DNA of 64,000 nt from Candidatus Aminicenantes bacterium. GTDB lineage: Bacteria > Acidobacteriota > Aminicenantia > Aminicenantales > Aminicenantaceae. A program made the position numbers and the translations under genes. The DNA lies in NCBI GenBank assembly GCA_011773465.1, contig WVXO01000064.1:57929-121928 (forward strand). The letters are read 5' to 3'. Shown here piece after piece: positions 47,150 to 59,615 of the stretch; the stretch's first letter is position 1; every line of letters begins with the position of its first letter. The notes beneath the pieces were generated by a model. The model was given only the letters and a program-made list of their open reading frames with translations. It ran no database searches and was not told the origin of the DNA.

Positions 47150-48589
47150 ATGACAAATTACTTACTCATCATGGAGAACGATGTGCTTAAGGCAAGACAA
47201 AGAGGATTGACAAGGAAGGATGAGTTTATTACTTTCTTGGCTATGAATATCTTAATCATCGCTGGCGGAATTTCATTAATCATCTTGATCTGTTTTTTCT
47301 TTCTGTTTGCCCTTTACAGTCTTCTGGAGAAAGAAAAAAGAGCTTTCTGGCGCAGCAGCGTTGTCGTTCTTCTTTTAATTATAATAAGCCTTATTTTTTT
47401 CCTAGTTGAACCCCCGTTAAAAAATTGGCTGTTTGCCATCGCCCTTATTGTACTCTTACTGGATCTTGTAATCCTGCTCTTTTCTCCTTTAAAAAGAAAA
47501 TCAACAGAAATTGTAGGGAAACAGAAAAAAATTGATGAAAGAGATGTTATCTTTGCTCGTTTTGAATATAAGGAAGGCACTGCGACTTATAAGGAGTATT
47601 ATACGAGAAAACCTGAATGCAAGAAGATAGATGATGAAATAAGAAGAATTCCTGACATCCTCTCTCCTCCTCATCTGAAAAAACATCCACATCTTTTCTC
47701 TCTGGCTTCTGCAGAGTTTGGCTTTCTTGAACATCAATTAACTCAGGTAAGTGGAAGAGAAAGTAGAGAAAAGTCTCAATTATCACCTTCTGAAAGCACT
47801 CGAATAATAAAGGAAATTATAAAATATTTGGGTTCTGATCTGTGCGGCATCTCTTCTTTAGATCAAGCTTATGTTTACTCCCATGTGGGGAGAGGGCCAG
47901 AACATTATGGTGAGGAAATAAAGCTTGAGCACACTTACGCCATTACTTTTGCTTTAGAGATGGATTTAGGGATGGTTGCAACTGCGCCTAAAGAACCTGT
48001 TATTGTCGAGACTGGGAAGAAATATATCGAAGCGGCAAGAATATCTATCATCGTTGCTGATTTCATCCGCCGCCTTGGATATCCAGCCAGAGCCCATATC
48101 GCGGGAAGCAATTATCAGGCTATGCTACCTCCACTCGCCTGGCTGGCTGGATTAGGAGAATTAGGAAGGCTGGGGATTCTTATCACCTCCAAATACGGGC
48201 CCAGAGCGAGATTAGGGCTTATTACAACCGATATTCCTCTGATTGAGGATAAACCGAAAAAATTGGGTATCCAGAATTTCTGCCAGAAATGCTATAAATG
48301 CGCTAGAAATTGTCCGGCCCAGGCTATTCCTTACGAAAAGAAGGTAGAGGTAAACGGAGTGTTGAAATGGGCGCTTAATCGAGAGGAATGCTATAAATTC
48401 TGGAGAAGAGCAGGTACTGACTGTGCTGTTTGTATTTATGTCTGCCCTTACAGCAAATCGGACAATGCCTTCCACGGCTTTATCAGGAAAGTTATGGAAA
48501 ATTCTGCTGTTGCCCAGTCCTTTTCAGTCTGGGCTGATGACTTTTTCTACGGTCGCGTTCCCCTTCGCAGAAAATCACCTTTAGGTTAA
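47150..48589 (+). CDS. Membrane-anchored reductive-dehalogenase / epoxyqueuosine-reductase (RdhA/QueG)-like Fe-S protein.
   Basis: Three N-terminal TM helices. 'AGLGELGRLGILITSKYGPRARLGLITTDIPL...FCQKCYKCARNCPAQAI...CAVCIYVCP' parallels RdhA/QueG cores. Confidence 0.6.
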   Translation: MTNYLLIMENDVLKARQRGLTRKDEFITFLAMNILIIAGGISLIILICFFFLFALYSLLEKEKRAFWRSSVVVLLLIIISLIFFLVEPPLKNWLFAIALIVLLLDLVILLFSPLKRKSTEIVGKQKKIDERDVIFARFEYKEGTATYKEYYTRKPECKKIDDEIRRIPDILSPPHLKKHPHLFSLASAEFGFLEHQLTQVSGRESREKSQLSPSESTRIIKEIIKYLGSDLCGISSLDQAYVYSHVGRGPEHYGEEIKLEHTYAITFALEMDLGMVATAPKEPVIVETGKKYIEAARISIIVADFIRRLGYPARAHIAGSNYQAMLPPLAWLAGLGELGRLGILITSKYGPRARLGLITTDIPLIEDKPKKLGIQNFCQKCYKCARNCPAQAIPYEKKVEVNGVLKWALNREECYKFWRRAGTDCAVCIYVCPYSKSDNAFHGFIRKVMENSAVAQSFSVWADDFFYGRVPLRRKSPLG

Positions 48590-48626: not shown

Positions 48627-48758
48627 TGCGGGTTTGATAAATCAAACTCTTACAGATTCTAAGAAAAAATGAGCTCGATGAATCAAGCCCCTACAATAAA
48701 TAAAGGTGGGCTCGATGAATCAAGCCCCTACAGATGAATCAAGCCCCTACTTAATGGG
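48627..48758. repeat. Cluster of family A REP-like units.
   Basis: 'gggtttgataaatcaaactcttaca', 'gctcgatgaatcaagcccctacaa' and 'gggctcgatgaatcaagcccctacagatgaatcaagcccctac'. Confidence 0.8.
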
Positions 48759-50372
48759 CTTATTGTATTTTTTTTCTCCCAGGGGAGACCACATTCCATA
48801 GCTTTCTTCATGGATCCGGCATTTGCCTTCAGATGTCCAACTGAATCCGTAGTTATAGCCGAACCACAGGTATTTATCTCCGCCTCCATTCTCGGTGGTG
48901 ATGATATAGCGAGCAGCTACATTCCCGATTCCAAGCACCTTTCTCCCTGGCAAATTTGTATCTCCTTTATTAGCATCAAAAGGAATCCAGCCATAAGGTG
49001 GGAGATAAACTTCAGTCCAGCGGTGATAGACATCATCATAGCTGGCGTCATCTCCACGGCGGCTGACTGCGCCCACATAGCGAATGGGAACTCCCAGAGT
49101 TCGGCAGAGGGCAATCATAGAATATGAATATTCTGAGCAGGAAGCCGTGCCTCGTTTAAGAACTGTAGGAGCAGGATTCCAGCCTCCCAAAGGCTTGAGG
49201 TTATAAGTCAGGTGATTTCCTAGAAAATCATAGATGCGGCGGGCAATCCAGTAAGGATTCTTTTCCTTTCCAGCGATTTTTTGAGCAAGATTCTTGATAT
49301 AAGGATCATTGATACAATATTTATCCCCATCCTGGGTATATTTTTTTCTTATTTCTTTAGGGATGTCTTCCAGGCCGCCTATTTTATCCGGATAAATAAA
49401 GTACTCCGCAGCATATATGTTTGCTTTCACTTTCCAGCCTGGCTTGACGACTGAATTGCCTTTTAAATCTTTGAAATTAAAATGAGCAATTTTCTGTCCC
49501 CAGCTATCTTCGATAATTTCACTCGGTTCAAGGTCAAACCCGACAGGTTCCAGGAGCGATTGATTGTCACGGATTTGGGGAATAGGAAGATAGATGTCTA
49601 AAGTCTTTACTGTCCCTGGACCGTAGTTTCGAAATTCTTTTATAAAATGAAGGGACATCTGACGCTCATCCCACTTGGAGAAAATATCTTTACTGAAGAC
49701 ATCTATCTTGTATATCTCATCATTTTCATAATCGACATTCCAAAGTGAATTATCTCCCCAGGCTAGGCCATAGGCGAACGGACCATAGGCACGCAGAGAA
49801 GAAAGGCACAGTCCATCAGAAGGATTGACTAGATAAATCCGGTCTTCACTCCTATCTGTTACCCATAAATATTTACCGTCATATGCGATACCTGCTGGTT
49901 CTTGGGCCGGAGAGGGAAAGTTTTGGACCATCATCCCGTCCTCGGGGGAAACTTTGATCAGGATATCTCTCCTGTAGTCAACGATCCAGACATATTTTCC
50001 GTCCCAGGCAAGATCACGAGGATTGGAGCTGTTTGATTCCAGGATCGATAGAGCTCTTCCTGTTTCAGGGTCTAAGAGGTACATGTATTTCTCCCCAGAA
50101 TCTATATGCCAGAGATGTTTTCCGTCCCAAGCCAGCCCTTCAGGATGGTGGCCAGGAGAGTCAAAACTTTTAATAATTTTTCCACTCTCTGGATTTACCT
50201 TGTAGATTTTATCTGTAAAATTATCCGCAAGCCAAAGATTTTTCCCATCATAGGTTAGACCTGTCGGGCACGGCCCGGGCGTTTTTATTACTTTTTGGAT
50301 GTCTCCAACTTTTGCCCAGGATAAAGATGAAAGAAGAATCAAAATACAAATGCCTATGCTTATCCTTTTCAT
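48747..50372 (-). CDS. Secreted protein with N-terminal 'DG..LW..D' beta-propeller repeats and a C-terminal transglutaminase-like cysteine protease domain.
   Basis: Signal peptide. Repeats 'LTYDGKNLWLADNFTDKIYKVN' (four copies). Transglutaminase core 'GTASCSEYSYSM...HRWTEVYLPPYGWIPFDANKGD' (Cys-His-Asp). Confidence 0.7.
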   Translation of the reverse strand: MKRISIGICILILLSSLSWAKVGDIQKVIKTPGPCPTGLTYDGKNLWLADNFTDKIYKVNPESGKIIKSFDSPGHHPEGLAWDGKHLWHIDSGEKYMYLLDPETGRALSILESNSSNPRDLAWDGKYVWIVDYRRDILIKVSPEDGMMVQNFPSPAQEPAGIAYDGKYLWVTDRSEDRIYLVNPSDGLCLSSLRAYGPFAYGLAWGDNSLWNVDYENDEIYKIDVFSKDIFSKWDERQMSLHFIKEFRNYGPGTVKTLDIYLPIPQIRDNQSLLEPVGFDLEPSEIIEDSWGQKIAHFNFKDLKGNSVVKPGWKVKANIYAAEYFIYPDKIGGLEDIPKEIRKKYTQDGDKYCINDPYIKNLAQKIAGKEKNPYWIARRIYDFLGNHLTYNLKPLGGWNPAPTVLKRGTASCSEYSYSMIALCRTLGVPIRYVGAVSRRGDDASYDDVYHRWTEVYLPPYGWIPFDANKGDTNLPGRKVLGIGNVAARYIITTENGGGDKYLWFGYNYGFSWTSEGKCRIHEESYGMWSPLGEKKYNKPIK

Positions 50373-50536
50373 GAAAACCTCCTTTAAACGCTTCTAGCTT
50401 TCTCCAATTATAAAAAAAAGATAAGTCTTTAGCAAAGATTTTTGATTTATTATTTTAGGAAGGCTCTTTGGTTTGACAGTCGAGCTTTAAATAATATATG
50501 GTTAAAAAAATCAACCCAATTTGAAAGGAGAAGGGA

Positions 50537-51862
50537 ATGGATACCACTCGTAGGAATTTTCTTAAAAGCATTGGTTTGGGCATCGGGAGTTTAAGTGTTT
50601 TTGGTTTATCCGCAAAAAGCGCCCAAGCTGAACTCAAGAAAAAATTGGCCAAGATAAAAGATTCATCTCCAACCGATATCGCGCAAGATGAAGATTTCTG
50701 GTTCTATGTCCAGCAGGCATTTGATTGTGACCGAAGTATCATAAATCTTAACAACGGAGGTGTTCATCCAGCCCCAAAAATTGTCATGGATGCTGTTCAC
50801 AGATATCTTGATTTCGCTAACGGCGCTCCTGTTTATAACTCATGGCAAGTCCTCCGGCCCAGAAAAGAACTCATAAGAAAAAAACTGGCTGATACTTTCG
50901 GGTGCTCGCCTGAGGAGATTGCCATCACCAGGAATGTAACTGAAGCCATGCAGATAGGTCTCCTTGGGATAGATCTTAAGCAGGGTGATGAACTCTTGAC
51001 CACAACCCATGACTATCCTTCCATGAAATATGCCCTTTTGCAGAGAGAAAAAAGGGAAGGAGTCAAAGTCAAGATGTTTCCTTTTTGCTATCCGCCCAAA
51101 AACATAAATGAACTGGCTGATGCCTTTAAGAAAAATATCACTCCCAGGACCAAGCTCATTGAAGTCTGTCACATCACCAATTTGACGGGTCAGATCTTTC
51201 CGATTAGAGAAATCTGCCAGATGGCAAAAGAGCGAGGAATAGAAGTGGTGGTAGACGGAGCTCATGCTTTTGGACACTTCGAGTTCAAGCAGAAGGACCT
51301 CGACTGCGATATCTACGGTGCTAATCTCCACAAATGGATGATGGCTCCTATAGGCACAGGTTTTCTCTATGTAAAAAAAGAAAAAATCAAGAAGATATGG
51401 CCCCTTTTTCCTGCTCTTGATCCTCAAGGTGATGACATCAGAAAATTTGAACACATCGGAACTCATCCTGATTACCTGGAGCTTGCCGTAGGTGAGGCCT
51501 TGGCCTTCCATCATGGGATCGGTGGTAAGAGAAAAGAAGAGAGAATGCGCTATCTGAGGAATTACTGGGCAAGAGCTCTTGAAAAGCTTCCCGGCGTAAA
51601 AATTCTAACTTCTTATGACCCAGAACAGTCTTGTGGTATAGGAACTTTCACAGTAGAAAACATGGATCTGTCTAAGTTGGTACAGATTCTGTTCGAGAAA
51701 CATAAAATCTACATCATCACAGTCGGAGTGCCATCTTTTGAACTGGATGGTGAACAGATTACTGGGATACGCGTAACGCCAAGCATCTACACAACCCTTC
51801 GCGAATTGGATACCTTTATCGAAGCAGTTTCCTATTATGTAAAACACGGGCTTCCGCAATGA
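50537..51862 (+). CDS. Tat-exported class-V-fold PLP-dependent enzyme (isopenicillin-N-epimerase / cysteine-desulfurase-like).
   Basis: 'TTRRNFLKSIGLGIGSLSVFGLSAKSAQA' Tat signal. 'VVVDGAHAFGH' and 'NLHKWMMAPIGTGFLYV' with PLP lysine. Confidence 0.7.
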   Translation: MDTTRRNFLKSIGLGIGSLSVFGLSAKSAQAELKKKLAKIKDSSPTDIAQDEDFWFYVQQAFDCDRSIINLNNGGVHPAPKIVMDAVHRYLDFANGAPVYNSWQVLRPRKELIRKKLADTFGCSPEEIAITRNVTEAMQIGLLGIDLKQGDELLTTTHDYPSMKYALLQREKREGVKVKMFPFCYPPKNINELADAFKKNITPRTKLIEVCHITNLTGQIFPIREICQMAKERGIEVVVDGAHAFGHFEFKQKDLDCDIYGANLHKWMMAPIGTGFLYVKKEKIKKIWPLFPALDPQGDDIRKFEHIGTHPDYLELAVGEALAFHHGIGGKRKEERMRYLRNYWARALEKLPGVKILTSYDPEQSCGIGTFTVENMDLSKLVQILFEKHKIYIITVGVPSFELDGEQITGIRVTPSIYTTLRELDTFIEAVSYYVKHGLPQ

Positions 51863-53237: not shown

Positions 53238-54272
53238 ATGGAAAAAATATCAAGGCGGAATTTTTTGGATGATTCATTGTTTTTAATGGGTTCTGCTCTT
53301 TTTCTCCCCTTTAGTTCACTCCGCTTGAAAGGGAAGGCTTTCTTGGATAACAGGGAAAATTCGAAAGAATACCCTTCTTACCTCGCACTTGATAAGAAAG
53401 GGACGCTTTCCGAGCGCGAAGAGAAATTGTATTCAATATATGAGAACTGCCATCTTTGTCCCCGAGATTGTCGCGTCAACAGGAAGGAAGGCCAAGTTGG
53501 AAGATGTCAGGCTACTTCCAGGGTAAAAATTTCAAGTGCTGCTCCCAGTTTTGATGAAGAACCCCTTTTGGTAGGGAAAAGCGGGTCTGGCGCCATATTC
53601 TTTTCCAACTGCGGGTTAAGGAGTGTTTACAGCCATGATTATAAGATTAGTATCGAAGGGGAGGGGATAGAAATATCAGACCAGAAATTGGCAGAAGAGA
53701 TGGTCAAACTCCAAAAAAAAGGATGTCACAATATCAATCTTGTTACTCCCACTCACTACGCACCCAACATCGTCAGCGCCATCCAGAAGGCTATCCCCCT
53801 GGGTTTCCGAATTCCTGTGGTCTATAATACACGCGGGTATGAGAAACAGGAAACTTTACAGCTTCTGGACGGCATAATCGATATCTACCTTACTGAGTGC
53901 AAATACATGGATTCTGAGCAGGCAGGTAAGTACTCGGCTGAGGCTTACAATTATCCTCACCATGCTAAGCTTGCCATTAAAGAGATGTACCGGCAGGTCG
54001 GGGATCTAAAATTAGATTCAAGAGGAATTGCTGTACGAGGATTGATTGTGAGGCATCTGATCCTCCCCAACAGGATAGCTGGAACAGAGAAATTTTTAAT
54101 ATTCATTGCCGAAAACCTTTCCAAGACTACCTACATTAATATTATGAATCAGTATCAACCTCGATACAAAGCCTCCGAATATCCTGAAATAGCCCGGAGC
54201 ATTAAGAGAAGCGAGTATAATGAAGCTCTAAAATGGGCCAAGAAATATGGCCTTACTCACCTGGCAAGATAG
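53238..54272 (+). CDS. PflX-type (COG1313) radical-SAM-fold protein with a degenerate CxxxCxxC motif and a Tat-like N-terminus.
   Basis: 'CHLCPRDCRVNRKEGQVGRC' matches the PflX N-terminal 'C.LCPR.C.V.R..G..G.C'. 'EEPLLVGKSGSGAIFFSNCGLRSVYSHD' aligns with 'EEP..SG..GSGTIFFSGCNLRCVFCQN', with two Cys replaced by Ser. N-terminus 'MEKISRRNFLDDSLFLMGSALFLP'. Confidence 0.55.
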   Translation: MEKISRRNFLDDSLFLMGSALFLPFSSLRLKGKAFLDNRENSKEYPSYLALDKKGTLSEREEKLYSIYENCHLCPRDCRVNRKEGQVGRCQATSRVKISSAAPSFDEEPLLVGKSGSGAIFFSNCGLRSVYSHDYKISIEGEGIEISDQKLAEEMVKLQKKGCHNINLVTPTHYAPNIVSAIQKAIPLGFRIPVVYNTRGYEKQETLQLLDGIIDIYLTECKYMDSEQAGKYSAEAYNYPHHAKLAIKEMYRQVGDLKLDSRGIAVRGLIVRHLILPNRIAGTEKFLIFIAENLSKTTYINIMNQYQPRYKASEYPEIARSIKRSEYNEALKWAKKYGLTHLAR

Positions 54273-58922: not shown

Positions 58923-59615
58923 TTATTTGATAGCGGTGTGAATGGCAGAAACACCCAGGAAAAGTGACCGATAAGTAACCCGAGCGAATCCCGCCTCACG
59001 TAGTATCGAGGAAAATTCCTCAGGAGGAAAAAAGCGCGGGATCGTGTAAGCAAGATATCTGTAAGCGGCTTTAGAGCCTGAGAGAAGAGACCCTAGTTGT
59101 TTTACAGTCAGTCTTATATAAAGATGAAAAAGCCTCTGGATAATTCTCATAGAAGGCTGACTAGTTTCAAGATTCACAAAATGTCCTTCAGGCTTGAGAA
59201 CACGATGAAACTCCTTTAGATGGGCAACCAGCTCTCGTTTGTTAGGATATATGTTTCGGGTGGCAAAAGAGATGGTCACCAGGTTGAATGTCATGTCAAC
59301 AAAAGGCAAACGCCCTGACTCAGCAAGAACAAAAGAGAAGTTTGGAATTTCTCTTTTCTCTAGGGCTCTATTTATCATCGGATGACAGAAATCGACAGAA
59401 ACAATCTTAACTTTTTCACCTGCCAGACGTGAAAGGTTAAGAGCCATTTCTCCAGTACCGCTGCACACATCCAGCCATAGAAAGCCTCTTGCTTTGACCG
59501 CTTCCCTAGCTGCTTTTCTCCGCCAAAGAATATCAAGCCCAAATGTCAGGATATGATTGACAAGCTCATAAGTTTTTGCAGCTTCAGAAAATATTTTTTG
59601 AATGCCTTTTCTCAT
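58923..59615 (-). CDS. ubiE: Class I SAM-dependent methyltransferase, UbiE/MenG/COQ5-like.
   Basis: 'IFSEAAKTYELVNHILTFGLDILWRR' and SAM motif I 'LDVCSGTGEMAL'. Confidence 0.7.
   Translation of the reverse strand: MRKGIQKIFSEAAKTYELVNHILTFGLDILWRRKAAREAVKARGFLWLDVCSGTGEMALNLSRLAGEKVKIVSVDFCHPMINRALEKREIPNFSFVLAESGRLPFVDMTFNLVTISFATRNIYPNKRELVAHLKEFHRVLKPEGHFVNLETSQPSMRIIQRLFHLYIRLTVKQLGSLLSGSKAAYRYLAYTIPRFFPPEEFSSILREAGFARVTYRSLFLGVSAIHTAIK

What the first reader, a model, noticed from the sequence alone, without database searches (positions are those of the whole stretch)
53238..54272. PflX-type radical-SAM homolog that has lost two of three cluster cysteines and carries a Tat-like signal
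The N-terminal four-Cys motif of COG1313/PflX proteins is intact (CHLCPRDCRVNRKEGQVGRC). In the segment that aligns to the canonical radical-SAM site (..GSGTIFFSGCNLRCVFCQN..) this protein reads GSGAIFFSNCGLRSVYSHD. Cys2 and Cys3 of CxxxCxxC are both Ser, which should abolish the SAM-binding [4Fe-4S] cluster. The protein also begins MEKISRRNFLDDSLFLMGSALFLP, an RR-x-FL twin-arginine-like motif followed by a hydrophobic stretch. A radical-SAM fold with no radical-SAM cluster that is exported fully folded would be a repurposed scaffold: a periplasmic Fe-S or zinc-ribbon protein. It sits directly after two PLP enzymes, one of them also Tat-targeted.
Basis: partly seen in the sequence, partly recalled or inferred. 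Interest (0 to 1): 0.8.

Follow-up and report, generated by a model that had tools for sequence, protein, structure and literature searches.

The report
Radical-SAM homolog without its SAM cluster
An Aminicenantes bacterium carries a well-conserved copy of an uncharacterised radical-SAM enzyme family (PflX) that has specifically lost the iron-sulfur site needed for radical chemistry yet is still kept by natural selection, and it carries a weak export-signal-like N-terminus that its normal relatives share.

Summary
ORF 53238-54272 encodes a 344-aa PflX/COG1313-type protein. Its N-terminal Cys4 motif is intact, but the CxxxCxxC motif reads C125-x3-S129-x2-S132. This is not an error or a dying gene. 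All 30 protein clusters and about 20 contigs of one monophyletic Aminicenantes clade share it, while about 160 other family members keep C-C-C. The gene occupies the same slot (PLP1-PLP2-PflX-GH63-ComA) where sister lineages hold a canonical enzyme. dN/dS is 0.13-0.14, like its neighbours. The loss is targeted: only H104, G106, C129, C132 and D220 (plus mostly N134) among family-conserved positions are replaced. D220 and N134 align to PFL-AE Asp129 and Asn38, which are SAM/cluster-site residues. AlphaFold2 (pLDDT 89.6) still gives a PFL-AE-like radical-SAM barrel. Two of three reference MAGs with this gene also carry a canonical paralogue elsewhere. The Tat part is only partly supported. S-R-R-N-F-L plus a hydrophobic stretch is present and translated, but canonical relatives share it, so it is not linked to the Cys loss. 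It fails the curated Tat HMM. However, a large separate PflX clade in other phyla has textbook, HMM-passing Tat signals with an intact motif. Best reading: a selection-maintained, non-radical pseudoenzyme; export is possible but unproven.

The parts
53238..54272 (+). Gene for the 344-aa PflX-type radical-SAM-fold protein lacking Cys2 and Cys3 of the SAM-cluster motif (stop codon included)
   Evidence: ORF and translation. 7595 homologues, the closest named 'radical SAM protein [Candidatus Aminicenantes bacterium]'. AlphaFold2 model pLDDT 89.6. Foldseek top hit PFL-AE 3c8f, E=1.5e-7.
53238..53369 (+). N-terminal extension (residues 1-44) absent from short-form homologues of other phyla: an n-region with the RR motif, a hydrophobic stretch of about 13-16 residues, then a basic linker
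   Evidence: Non-Aminicenantes homologues align only from about residue 46. Constant 44 codons and omega 0.31 within the clade, so it is translated. Low pLDDT with a helix at 6-19. NCBI's shorter start (TTG at 53343, giving 309 aa) is therefore probably wrong.
53250..53267 (+). S5-R6-R7-N8-F9-L10, a twin-arginine-like motif
   Evidence: Read directly from the sequence. Conserved in C-S-S, canonical type-1 and canonical type-2 Aminicenantes genes. No TIGR01409 or PF10518 hit for this protein; 12.1-12.7 bits (cut-off 16.7) in canonical relatives.
53448..53507 (+). C71-x2-C74-x3-C78-x11-C90 N-terminal four-Cys motif (putative auxiliary metal or Fe-S site)
   Evidence: All four Cys are invariant in 96 family sequences and present in 141-143 of the 142-143 representatives that cover each of these columns (151 sequences aligned). 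The region is modelled with pLDDT about 95 as coil plus a short helix.
53547..53555 (+). S104-F105-D106, replacing the family-invariant H-F-G of the PHFGEE motif
   Evidence: H104 and G106 are 100% conserved in 50 canonical sequences. In the C-S-S clade they are S/N and D/N/T/A, which is variable and therefore relaxed.
53610..53639 (+). Degenerate radical-SAM cluster motif C125-G-L-R-S129-V-Y-S132-H133-D134 (canonical: C-x3-C-x2-C-Q-N)
   Evidence: Codons TGC...AGT...AGC. Aligns to PFL-AE C29/C33/C36/H37/N38. Ser is fixed at both positions in 30/30 clusters, while position 133 (Q/H/P) and 134 (D/N) vary.
53895..53897 (+). E220, replacing the family-invariant Asp of the D-x-K motif at the end of strand beta4
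   Evidence: D220 is 100% conserved in canonical sequences, and Glu is fixed in the clade. It aligns to PFL-AE Asp129, a ligand of the active-site K+ that also binds the SAM carboxylate (PMC10267522).
52002..53225 (+). Upstream class-V PLP enzyme (kynureninase/SufS-like, no signal); its stop lies 12 nt before the target's start codon
   Evidence: Pfam Aminotran_5 at 7e-40 plus KYNU_C. TIGR01814 at 157 bits, below its 246 cut-off. The PLP2-PflX pairing is conserved in most type-1 Aminicenantes loci, canonical or not.
50537..51862 (+). First gene of the likely operon: a Tat-signal-bearing class-V PLP enzyme (PvdN-like)
   Evidence: Aminotran_5 at 2e-43. Best NCBIfam match is PvdN at 166 bits, below its cut-off. 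The N-terminus passes TIGR01409 at 16.9 bits against 16.7. A promoter-like site lies at 50473-50502, and there is no + strand terminator before the target.

Best explanation
The gene encodes a positional orthologue of a PflX/COG1313-family radical-SAM enzyme. In one Aminicenantes lineage, the site that binds the SAM-cleaving [4Fe-4S] cluster was selectively dismantled. The changes are C129S and C132S, plus D220E, usually N134D, and relaxation of H104 and G106. The rest of the protein was kept: the N-terminal Cys4 metal site, the partial TIM barrel and about 90% of family-conserved residues.

With one of three cluster cysteines left, and with the counterparts of PFL-AE Asn38 and Asp129 altered, it most likely cannot bind the radical-SAM cluster or cleave SAM (inferred). 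Purifying selection equal to that on neighbouring genes shows it still does something useful (shown).

The most likely mode of action (inferred) is a non-radical role that uses what is conserved. It would bind the family's unknown substrate or partner in the barrel and hold a metal or Fe-S centre at the Cys4 site, acting as a binding, scaffold or electron-transfer subunit. The ancestral radical chemistry would be supplied by a second, canonical paralogue found elsewhere in the same genomes.

The protein is probably co-transcribed with two PLP enzymes. Its 44-residue N-terminal extension is a family trait of the Aminicenantes proteins and resembles a weak or degenerate Tat signal. Export is plausible but unproven (about 0.4).
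For: Motif loss is real and clade-wide.

A single origin, nested within canonical Aminicenantes sequences.

Same syntenic slot as canonical orthologues: RDH-TGase-PLP1-PLP2-PflX-GH63-ComA-P323-P230-P543.

Selection:
- omega is 0.13-0.144, against 0.063-0.171 for nine neighbouring genes in the same genome pairs. Canonical orthologues at similar low dS give 0.15-0.21.
- The relative-rate excess is only 1.1-1.5x and mostly not significant.

Targeted nature of the loss:
- 94 of 104 family-conserved columns are retained. The otherwise invariant positions that are replaced are H104, G106, C129, C132 and D220.
- Only 9 clade-private fixed positions exist.
- Ser129 and Ser132 are fixed in 30/30 clusters, with one synonymous AGT>AGC change, while adjacent positions drift.

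Mapping to PFL-AE:
- S129=C33, S132=C36, D134=Asn38, E220=Asp129; K222=Lys131 is retained.
- In PFL-AE, Asp129 ligates the K+ that binds the SAM carboxylate, and Asn38 contacts the GGE motif and the cluster (PMC10267522).

The fold is retained: pLDDT 89.6, and the best PDB match is PFL-AE at E=1.5e-7, TM 0.68.

The Pfam Radical_SAM hit is lost here but present in orthologues.

A canonical type-2 paralogue sits in the same MAGs as the C-S-S gene in two cases: SRP068000_co2_7 (L001+L007) and CSMAG_2323 (L002+L008).

The N-terminal extension is translated (omega 0.31) and shared with canonical relatives.
Against: No biochemical data exist for any PflX-family member (literature searches), so the substrate and the 'partner' role are conjecture.

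Strict conservation of Ser, rather than drift, at both former Cys positions could mean the hydroxyls still ligate a metal or cluster.

omega is about twice that of deeply diverged canonical clades (0.05-0.07), so some relaxation cannot be excluded.

Co-occurrence with the canonical paralogue rests on 2 of 3 MAGs against 0 of 4 canonical-type MAGs. The sample is small, MAGs are incomplete and the search was pattern-limited.

One MAG contig (L030) carries only a remnant of the C-S-S gene, with an internal deletion and PLP2 missing. If that is not a co-assembly artefact, the gene is dispensable in at least one lineage.

Confidence: 0.7

Rival explanations
1. The protein is still a working radical-SAM (or at least cluster-binding) enzyme with unconventional ligation. 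A cluster would be held by Cys125 plus the hydroxyls of Ser129 and Ser132, or by other residues, and SAM would still be bound and cleaved or used differently.
For: Both replacements are Ser, the closest isostere of Cys and a known occasional Fe-S ligand (general knowledge). Both are strictly fixed in 30/30 clusters while neighbouring positions 133, 134, 104 and 106 vary. Lys222 (=PFL-AE Lys131) and most barrel residues are retained.
Against: Two of the three ligands are changed at once. The changes coincide with replacement of the counterparts of Asn38 and Asp129 and with relaxation of invariant H104 and G106, which looks like abandonment of the site. No new Cys was gained: the Cys inventory (C71, C74, C78, C90, C125, C163, C221) is shared with canonical Aminicenantes relatives. 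The Pfam Radical_SAM signal is lost entirely.
Confidence: 0.1
2. The protein is a Tat-exported periplasmic Fe-S or metal protein. The RR N-terminus directs the folded, cofactor-loaded scaffold across the membrane. SAM is unavailable there, so the SAM cluster became dispensable and was lost.
For: - S-R-R-N-F-L followed by a hydrophobic stretch of 13-16 residues and a basic c-region, conserved and translated.
- The extension ends exactly where short-form homologues start.
- Fe-S proteins are classical Tat cargo (general knowledge).
- The upstream PLP1 has an HMM-passing Tat signal, so the organism probably has a Tat system.
- 102 of 120 relatives of P0204 in other phyla combine a textbook Tat signal with an intact CxxxCxxC. 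P0204 and P0282 pass TIGR01409 at 23.6 and 20.3 bits, and NCBI names several of these relatives 'twin-arginine translocation signal domain-containing protein'.
- In 3 of 6 loci examined, those genes lie next to tatA-tatC.
Against: - The window protein's N-terminus gets no Tat HMM hit. Aminicenantes relatives are sub-threshold and match only the RR motif.
- Acidic residues (DD, ED, GE) follow F-L where Tat signals usually have a basic or neutral residue, and there is no clear AxA site.
- The extension is equally present on canonical C-C-C proteins, which should need cytoplasmic SAM and reductant. It therefore does not explain the Cys loss in this clade alone.
- One C-S-S sublineage reads SQRNLL.
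- No tatA or tatC lies in the window or in any Aminicenantes locus.
- On the core-domain tree the Aminicenantes proteins do not group with the Tat clade.
Confidence: 0.3
3. It is a gene on its way to becoming a pseudogene, made redundant by the canonical paralogue, or a sequencing or assembly artefact.
For: omega is about 2x higher than in deeply diverged canonical clades. H104 and G106 are variable. L030 carries a deleted remnant of the C-S-S gene. NCBI's gene call truncated the N-terminus.
Against: Intact full-length ORFs on about 20 independent contigs and in 30 protein clusters from many samples. dS is 0.3-0.8 with dN/dS 0.10-0.19, no different from neighbouring housekeeping-like genes. 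There are no indels within the clade, even in the N-terminal extension. Identical substitutions in every member exclude error.
Confidence: 0.04

Closest known systems
PflX / COG1313 / KEGG K04070 family ('putative pyruvate formate-lyase activating enzyme', uncharacterised radical SAM proteins)
   Same: Full-length homology (65-74% identity to canonical Aminicenantes members, 42-53% to other phyla). Same N-terminal CxxCxxxC...C motif, same barrel, and the same genomic slot as canonical orthologues.
   Different: It lacks Cys2 and Cys3 of CxxxCxxC and the family-invariant H104, G106 and D220. It fails Pfam PF04055, which canonical members pass. The family has no NCBIfam model and no literature that I could find.
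E. coli pyruvate formate-lyase activating enzyme (PflA; PDB 3C8F/3CB8/8FO0)
   Same: Best structural match of the model (Foldseek E=1.5e-7, TM 0.68 normalised to the target) and the only PDB sequence-profile match. The cluster loop, the D-x-K strand and Lys131 align.
   Different: 12% identity. The window protein has an extra N-terminal Cys4 module and a C-terminal extension. Glycyl-radical activase NCBIfam models score far below threshold even for canonical relatives (16-29 bits against cut-offs of 131-425). None of the eight annotated neighbouring genes is a glycyl-radical enzyme. The cluster ligands C33 and C36 are absent here.
HemW/RSAD1-type haem chaperones (a radical-SAM scaffold used for a non-radical job)
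   Same: A precedent for a radical-SAM fold repurposed for binding and transfer rather than radical catalysis. E. coli HemW has only weak SAM cleavage activity and acts as a haem chaperone (as summarised in PMC10320005).
   Different: HemW keeps its [4Fe-4S] cluster, which is needed for haem transfer. It belongs to the HemN-like branch, not the PFL-AE-like branch. No haem link was seen here.
Tat-signal-bearing PflX clade (e.g. P0204, P0361, P0372, P0467; Treponema, Chitinivibrionia, Fibromonadaceae, Elusimicrobia and Alphaproteobacteria MAGs)
   Same: Same family and the same long-form architecture: an N-terminal RR extension, a linker, then the PflX domain.
   Different: Those proteins have textbook Gly/Ala-rich Tat signals ending in LFA that pass TIGR01409 and PF10518, and they keep C-C-C. 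Half of the loci examined sit beside tatA-tatC. The Aminicenantes proteins do not group with them on the core-domain tree and have Leu/Phe-rich, sub-threshold signals.

Membership tests
Radical SAM superfamily (PF04055) | Three-Cys CxxxCxxC (or variant) motif after strand beta1 that ligates the SAM-binding [4Fe-4S] cluster | tested here: not met
   C125-x3-S129-x2-S132. Aligned to PFL-AE C29/C33/C36.
Radical SAM superfamily (PF04055) | Pfam PF04055 score at or above the gathering threshold (29.5 bits) | tested here: not met
   No hit even at E<=10. Canonical orthologue L040 scores 33.9, paralogue L057 37.7 and distant L012 36.0 bits.
Radical SAM superfamily (PF04055) | Partial (beta/alpha)6 TIM-barrel fold | tested here: met
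   AlphaFold2 pLDDT 89.6 with six beta-alpha units. 25 PDB matches at E<=1e-3, all radical SAM enzymes, led by PFL-AE.
Radical SAM superfamily (PF04055) | Conserved SAM-contacting residues (counterparts of PFL-AE Asn38, Asp129, Lys131 and the GGE region) | tested here: inconclusive
   N134D and D220E are altered, while K222 and the T170-P171-T172 region are retained. Residue roles are taken from PMC10267522. The mapping is by profile alignment, not by structure superposition.
Radical SAM superfamily (PF04055) | Reductive cleavage of SAM | not testable with these tools
   Needs anaerobic biochemistry.
PflX / COG1313 family | Full-length homology to proteins annotated as PflX-type 'putative pyruvate formate lyase activating enzyme' | tested here: met
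   E values from 1e-204 down to 1e-147 for the 120 best hits, many with that JGI name. 909 cluster representatives at E<=1e-30.
PflX / COG1313 family | N-terminal CxxCPxxC...GxC four-Cys motif preceding the radical-SAM core | tested here: met
   C71, C74, C78 and C90 are invariant in alignment A3 and conserved in essentially every representative that covers those columns (141-143 of 142-143; 151 sequences aligned, 8-9 gapped).
PflX / COG1313 family | Score against the COG1313 or K04070 profile itself | not testable with these tools
   Neither COG nor KEGG profiles are in the available libraries, and NCBIfam has no dedicated model.
Tat (twin-arginine) substrates | S/T-R-R-x-F-L-K consensus near the N-terminus | tested here: met
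   S5-R6-R7-N8-F9-L10 (D, not K, at the next position). Conserved across Aminicenantes orthologues and paralogues except L003/L039, which read SQRNLL.
Tat (twin-arginine) substrates | Curated Tat-signal HMM (TIGR01409 cut-off 16.7 bits; PF10518 cut-off 22.7 bits) | tested here: not met
   No hit for the window N-terminus. L040 scores 12.1 and L057 12.7 bits. The positive control PLP1 scores 16.9 bits. P0204 (23.6) and P0282 (20.3) from other PflX clades pass.
Tat (twin-arginine) substrates | Moderately hydrophobic h-region of about 12-20 residues, followed by a c-region with a signal-peptidase site | tested here: inconclusive
   SLFLMGSALFLPF is 13 residues. Mean Kyte-Doolittle hydropathy over the 18 residues after the motif is 1.05. 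The c-region is basic (RLKGKA) with no clear AxA. No TatP or SignalP was available.
Tat (twin-arginine) substrates | Tat machinery present, and export demonstrated | not testable with these tools
   No tatA or tatC in the 64-kb window or the Aminicenantes loci. The whole genome is not available, and export needs experiments.
Glycyl-radical enzyme activases (PFL-AE family) | Equivalog or subfamily HMM above cut-off, and a cognate glycyl-radical enzyme nearby | tested here: not met
   Canonical relatives score 15-32 bits against cut-offs of 131-425. None of the eight neighbouring proteins scanned is a GRE. No conserved neighbour exists across phyla.

The most novel reading that the evidence does not exclude
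Long-form PflX proteins, including this one, are genuinely Tat-exported radical-SAM-fold Fe-S proteins that work outside the cytoplasm, where SAM and low-potential reductants are not expected. The C-S-S clade would then be a natural experiment showing that the SAM cluster is dispensable for that extracytoplasmic function. The conserved Cys4 site and barrel would carry the real activity, for example periplasmic redox or sulfur chemistry together with the adjacent Tat-exported PLP enzyme.
Probability: 0.2. Interest if true: 0.8.

Novelty: new variant of a known kind. Interest (0 to 1): 0.55.

Why it matters
Radical SAM enzymes form one of the largest enzyme superfamilies, and automated annotation names them from fold or HMM similarity. 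This case is clean and evolutionarily well controlled:
- It sits at the same locus as canonical orthologues.
- The loss happened once.
- Only the active site was ablated.
- Purifying selection is unchanged.

It shows that a radical-SAM scaffold can be kept after losing the radical machinery. NCBI nevertheless labels it 'radical SAM protein'.

It also gives a handle on an entirely uncharacterised family (PflX/COG1313; more than 5,000 cluster representatives at 50% identity). Whatever the C-S-S protein still does must depend on the Cys4 site and the barrel, not on SAM cleavage.

The side finding is that a large PflX clade pairs textbook Tat signals with an intact SAM-cluster motif, sometimes next to tatAC. 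I found no literature on this. If export is real, it raises the question of what a radical-SAM enzyme does in the periplasm.

Tried and rejected
- **First AlphaFold2 run.** Using 27 close relatives gave pLDDT 40 and was discarded. A 96-sequence alignment was needed.
- **Literature.** 'PflX' + 'radical SAM', 'COG1313' and 'K04070' returned nothing relevant. 'Radical SAM' + 'twin-arginine' + 'periplasmic' returned no paper on an exported radical SAM enzyme. 'Radical SAM' + 'pseudoenzyme' returned nothing useful.
- **C. jejuni CgdH2.** I considered it as a precedent for motif loss and rejected it, because it keeps CxxxCxxC.
- **Conserved neighbours across 33 non-Aminicenantes loci.** Nothing was shared beyond close relatives, so there is no functional hint from context.
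- **Type-2 paralogue context.** Its neighbours are thiolases, a hydrolase, a multihaem cytochrome and rubrerythrin, which is uninformative.
- **P230 as a possible TatC.** Rejected; it is a UbiE-like methyltransferase. A tblastn search with TatA and TatC found none in the window or the Aminicenantes loci.
- **tat linkage in the Tat clade.** It held in 3 of 6 loci, so it is not universal.
- **Common origin of the Aminicenantes extension and the Tat clade.** The NJ core-domain tree does not support it. Bootstrap values were not displayed, so the question is unresolved.
- **Failed runs.** A Biopython bootstrap timed out. The first N-terminal dN/dS script used a landmark pattern that was too strict and was redone.
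- **Model coordinates.** They are not exposed, so Cys-Cys distances and the zinc-ribbon question could not be measured.
Full report

Yes. Its start codon lies 12 nt after the stop of the upstream PLP gene.

It has thousands of homologues. The closest are annotated 'radical SAM protein [Candidatus Aminicenantes bacterium]' or 'putative pyruvate formate lyase activating enzyme'.

In alignments, the segment GSGAIFFSNCGLRSVYSHD lies column for column on GSGTIFFSNCGLRCVFCQN of relatives. A family profile finds only E. coli PFL-activating enzyme in the PDB, aligned exactly on its C29-x3-C33-x2-C36 cluster motif. hhalign confirms C125=C29, S129=C33 and S132=C36.

The Ser codons are AGT and AGC, each one transversion from a Cys codon. 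The N-terminal C71-x2-C74-x3-C78-x11-C90 motif is intact, and all four Cys are invariant in 96 family sequences.

Pfam Radical_SAM gives no hit for this protein even at E<=10. Its canonical orthologue, paralogue and a distant relative score 34-38 bits against a cut-off of 29.5.

**2. It is a clade property, not an error or a one-off**

- All 30 protein clusters at >=81% identity read C-S-S, and 161 other family proteins read C-C-C.
- Among 93 fetched loci, every one at >=81% identity is C-S-S and every one at <=76% is C-C-C.
- The C-S-S sequences form one clade nested inside canonical Aminicenantes sequences, so the loss happened once.

**3. Orthology and paralogy**

The C-S-S genes sit in the arrangement RDH-like / transglutaminase / PLP1 (Tat signal) / PLP2 / PflX / GH63 / ComA / P323 / methyltransferase / P543. 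Other Aminicenantes lineages have a canonical C-C-C gene in the same slot. The C-S-S genes are therefore positional orthologues of working-type enzymes.

A second, canonical paralogue (type 2, motif CGMRCVFCQN) lies in an unrelated context. Two of the three reference MAGs that hold a C-S-S gene also hold this paralogue (L001+L007, L002+L008). None of the four MAGs with a canonical type-1 gene showed it. The numbers are small and the scan was pattern-limited. The window itself has no second copy.

**4. Selection**

| Gene set | omega (Nei-Gojobori) |
|---|---|
| C-S-S clade, core domain | 0.13 (dS 0.3-0.8) |
| C-S-S gene, HSP-based pairs | 0.144 |
| Nine neighbouring genes, same genome pairs | 0.063-0.171 (GH63 0.131, PLP2 0.112) |
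| Canonical orthologues, deep divergence | 0.05-0.07 |
| Canonical orthologues, comparable low dS | 0.15-0.21 |

Any relaxation is therefore at most about 2-fold, and possibly nil.

Tajima relative-rate tests show only a 1.1-1.5x excess of changes in the C-S-S lineage, mostly not significant. The gene is a constrained coding gene.

One caveat: contig L030 carries only a remnant of a C-S-S-type gene, with residues ~65-230 deleted and PLP2 missing. That is either loss in one lineage or a co-assembly artefact.

**5. The change is surgical**

Of 104 columns that are >=85% conserved in 50 canonical sequences, the clade keeps 94; other Aminicenantes subclades keep 99-104 of theirs. Six of the ten changed columns are replaced throughout the clade: five positions invariant in canonical sequences (below) and the conservative V98I.

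| Position | Change in the clade | Behaviour |
|---|---|---|
| H104 | S or N | variable |
| G106 | D, N, T or A | variable |
| C129 | S | fixed |
| C132 | S | fixed |
| D220 | E | fixed |

N134 becomes D in most members. Only nine positions are fixed in the clade and absent from all canonical Aminicenantes sequences.

By profile alignment, D220 corresponds to PFL-AE Asp129, N134 to Asn38, and the retained K222 to Lys131. In the PFL-AE/SAM structure:
- Asp129 (with Asp104) ligates the active-site K+, which also binds the SAM carboxylate.
- Asn38 hydrogen-bonds to the GGE motif and, through its backbone amide, to the cluster.
- Lys131 lies next to the cluster sulfurs (PMC10267522).

The extra substitutions therefore fall in the SAM/cluster pocket. 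This part is inferred from alignment; I could not superpose coordinates.

**6. Fold**

An AlphaFold2 run on 27 close sequences failed (pLDDT 40). With 96 diverse family members the model is confident (pLDDT 89.6, with residues 45-344 mostly above 94).

Foldseek against the PDB returns PFL-AE first (E=1.5e-7, TM 0.68 normalised to the target). Lipoyl synthase, DesII, SkfB, viperin and QueE follow. The radical-SAM partial barrel is retained.

Residues 71-95, which carry the Cys4 motif, are modelled as coil plus a 3-residue helix. That does not look like the paired hairpins of a zinc ribbon, but I could not measure distances.

**7. The N-terminal extension and the Tat question**

Residues 1-44 precede the point where short-form homologues from other phyla begin. 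The extension has a constant 44 codons within the clade and omega 0.31, similar to 0.26-0.52 in canonical clades. It is therefore translated, and NCBI's shorter start (TTG at 53343, 309 aa) is probably wrong.

Its layout is signal-peptide-like: a conserved S-R-R-x-F-L, a variable hydrophobic stretch of 13-16 residues, and a basic linker of variable length.

Four points count against treating it as an established Tat signal:
- (a) Canonical type-1 and type-2 Aminicenantes proteins share it, so it is not tied to the Cys loss.
- (b) TIGR01409 and PF10518 give no hit for the window protein and only 12.1-12.7 bits (cut-off 16.7) for canonical relatives, whereas the PLP1 control passes at 16.9.
- (c) Acidic residues follow F-L, and there is no clear AxA site.
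- (d) One C-S-S sublineage reads SQRNLL.

One point counts for it. The exhaustive representative search and a follow-up search uncovered a large PflX clade in Treponema, Chitinivibrionia, Chitinispirillales, Fibromonadaceae, Elusimicrobia, Spirochaetes and Alphaproteobacteria MAGs. In that clade:
- 102 of 120 proteins combine a textbook Tat signal (M.LSRR.FIKGGLVAAGTAAAALGG...LFA) with an intact CxxxCxxC.
- Two tested N-termini pass TIGR01409 at 23.6 and 20.3 bits.
- NCBI names several of them 'twin-arginine translocation signal domain-containing protein'.
- In 3 of 6 loci examined, the gene lies 0.9-3.1 kb from tatA-tatC (against 81-83).

On a core-domain NJ tree, the Aminicenantes proteins do not group with that clade (support values not shown). 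The window and the Aminicenantes loci hold no tatA or tatC. I put export of the window protein at roughly 0.3-0.4.

**8. What it most likely is and does**

- *Shown:* a PflX-family, radical-SAM-fold protein whose SAM-cluster site was specifically ablated once in an Aminicenantes lineage, at the ancestral locus, and which has remained under purifying selection since.
- *Inferred:* it can no longer bind the SAM cluster or generate a 5'-deoxyadenosyl radical. It works through the retained Cys4 metal site and barrel as a binding, scaffold or redox subunit. The canonical type-2 paralogue supplies the radical chemistry.

The family's substrate is unknown. There is no dedicated NCBIfam model; canonical relatives hit NrdG, AmmeMemoRadiSam and GRE-activase models only weakly. 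No neighbour is conserved across phyla, and I found no literature. Within Aminicenantes the PLP2-PflX pair is conserved whether or not the motif is intact. The promoter/terminator scan is compatible with a PLP1-PLP2-PflX transcript.

**9. Rivals**

- Unconventional ligation by Ser hydroxyls is the main alternative. It is supported only by the strict fixation of Ser at both sites.
- Pseudogenisation and artefact are effectively excluded.

**10. Comparison with known systems, and novelty**

It is a member of the PflX/COG1313 homology family. It fails two defining features of the radical SAM superfamily as an enzyme class (the three-Cys motif and the Pfam threshold) while keeping the fold. The nearest functional analogy is a radical-SAM scaffold used for a non-radical job, as in HemW, although HemW keeps its cluster.

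Motif-less radical-SAM homologues are not unheard of. A few other PflX representatives also have degenerate motifs (P0270, P0277, P0295, P0260; clusters of 1-3 members). I therefore rate this a new variant of a known kind. Its value is the unusually clean evolutionary control, and the pointer it gives to the undescribed clade of Tat-signal-bearing PflX proteins.

Noticed in passing
L094:6001-7053, L095:6001-7053, L096:6001-7038 (and P0204 relatives, P0355-P0473): A large PflX clade in Treponema, Chitinivibrionia, Chitinispirillales, Fibromonadaceae, Elusimicrobia, Spirochaetes and Alphaproteobacteria MAGs carries textbook Tat signals that pass the TIGR01409 HMM, together with an intact CxxxCxxC motif (102 of 120 proteins). 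In 3 of 6 loci examined the gene lies 0.9-3.1 kb from tatA-tatC. I found no literature on exported radical SAM enzymes.
   Followed up: partly
window 50537-51862 (+): A class-V PLP enzyme with a Tat signal (MDTTRRNFLKSIGLGIGSLSVFGLSAKSAQA) that just passes TIGR01409 at 16.9 bits against 16.7. Its best NCBIfam match is the periplasmic pyoverdine-tailoring enzyme PvdN, far below that model's cut-off (166 against 650 bits). It is probably a periplasmic PLP enzyme of unknown function.
   Followed up: partly
window 53343 (TTG) versus 53238 (ATG): NCBI's record for this protein (P0001, 309 aa) starts at an internal TTG. The 35 codons upstream of it are conserved, show no indels and have dN/dS about 0.3, so the longer ORF is the likely true gene. 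Similar truncated calls exist for P0031 and P0120.
   Followed up: yes
L003:7989-9032 and L039 (identical): One sublineage of the C-S-S clade has lost the twin arginine (MKKFSQRNLLEDS...) while keeping the hydrophobic stretch.
   Followed up: no
L030:1061-1315: Contig from the MAG binchicken_co34_557. PLP1 is followed directly by a remnant of a C-S-S-type gene that lacks residues ~65-230, its N-terminus and its C-terminus. PLP2 is absent. This is either gene decay in one lineage or a co-assembly artefact.
   Followed up: partly
L077:8001-8989: A canonical (C-C-C) type-1 orthologue with a single frameshift near residue 160. This is either a sequencing error or a pseudogene in a different Aminicenantes lineage.
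   Followed up: partly
P0270, P0277, P0295, P0260, P0263 (representatives): Other rare PflX-family representatives have degenerate cluster motifs (T..CC, D-C-C, C-A-H, C-C-R), and some also carry D220E or changes at H104. P0263 keeps C-C-C but has the same PSFD and D220E changes as the window protein. Their clusters hold only 1-3 members.
   Followed up: partly
window 47150-48589 (+): A reductive-dehalogenase-family protein (TIGR02486 at 163 bits, cut-off 160) with a long hydrophobic, multi-TM-like N-terminus in place of the usual Tat signal. It is conserved upstream in the type-1 loci.
   Followed up: no
window 48747-50372 (-) and L096:11226-13038: A secreted beta-propeller plus transglutaminase-core protein lies near the PflX gene in the window. 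A PQQ-like beta-propeller gene and a Transglut_core gene also lie near the Tat-type PflX in a Spirochaetes contig. This may be coincidence.
   Followed up: no
window 58923-59615 (-): The conserved neighbour 'P230' is a UbiE/COQ5-like SAM-dependent methyltransferase (LDVCSGTGE motif). It is not TatC, as its size had suggested.
   Followed up: yes
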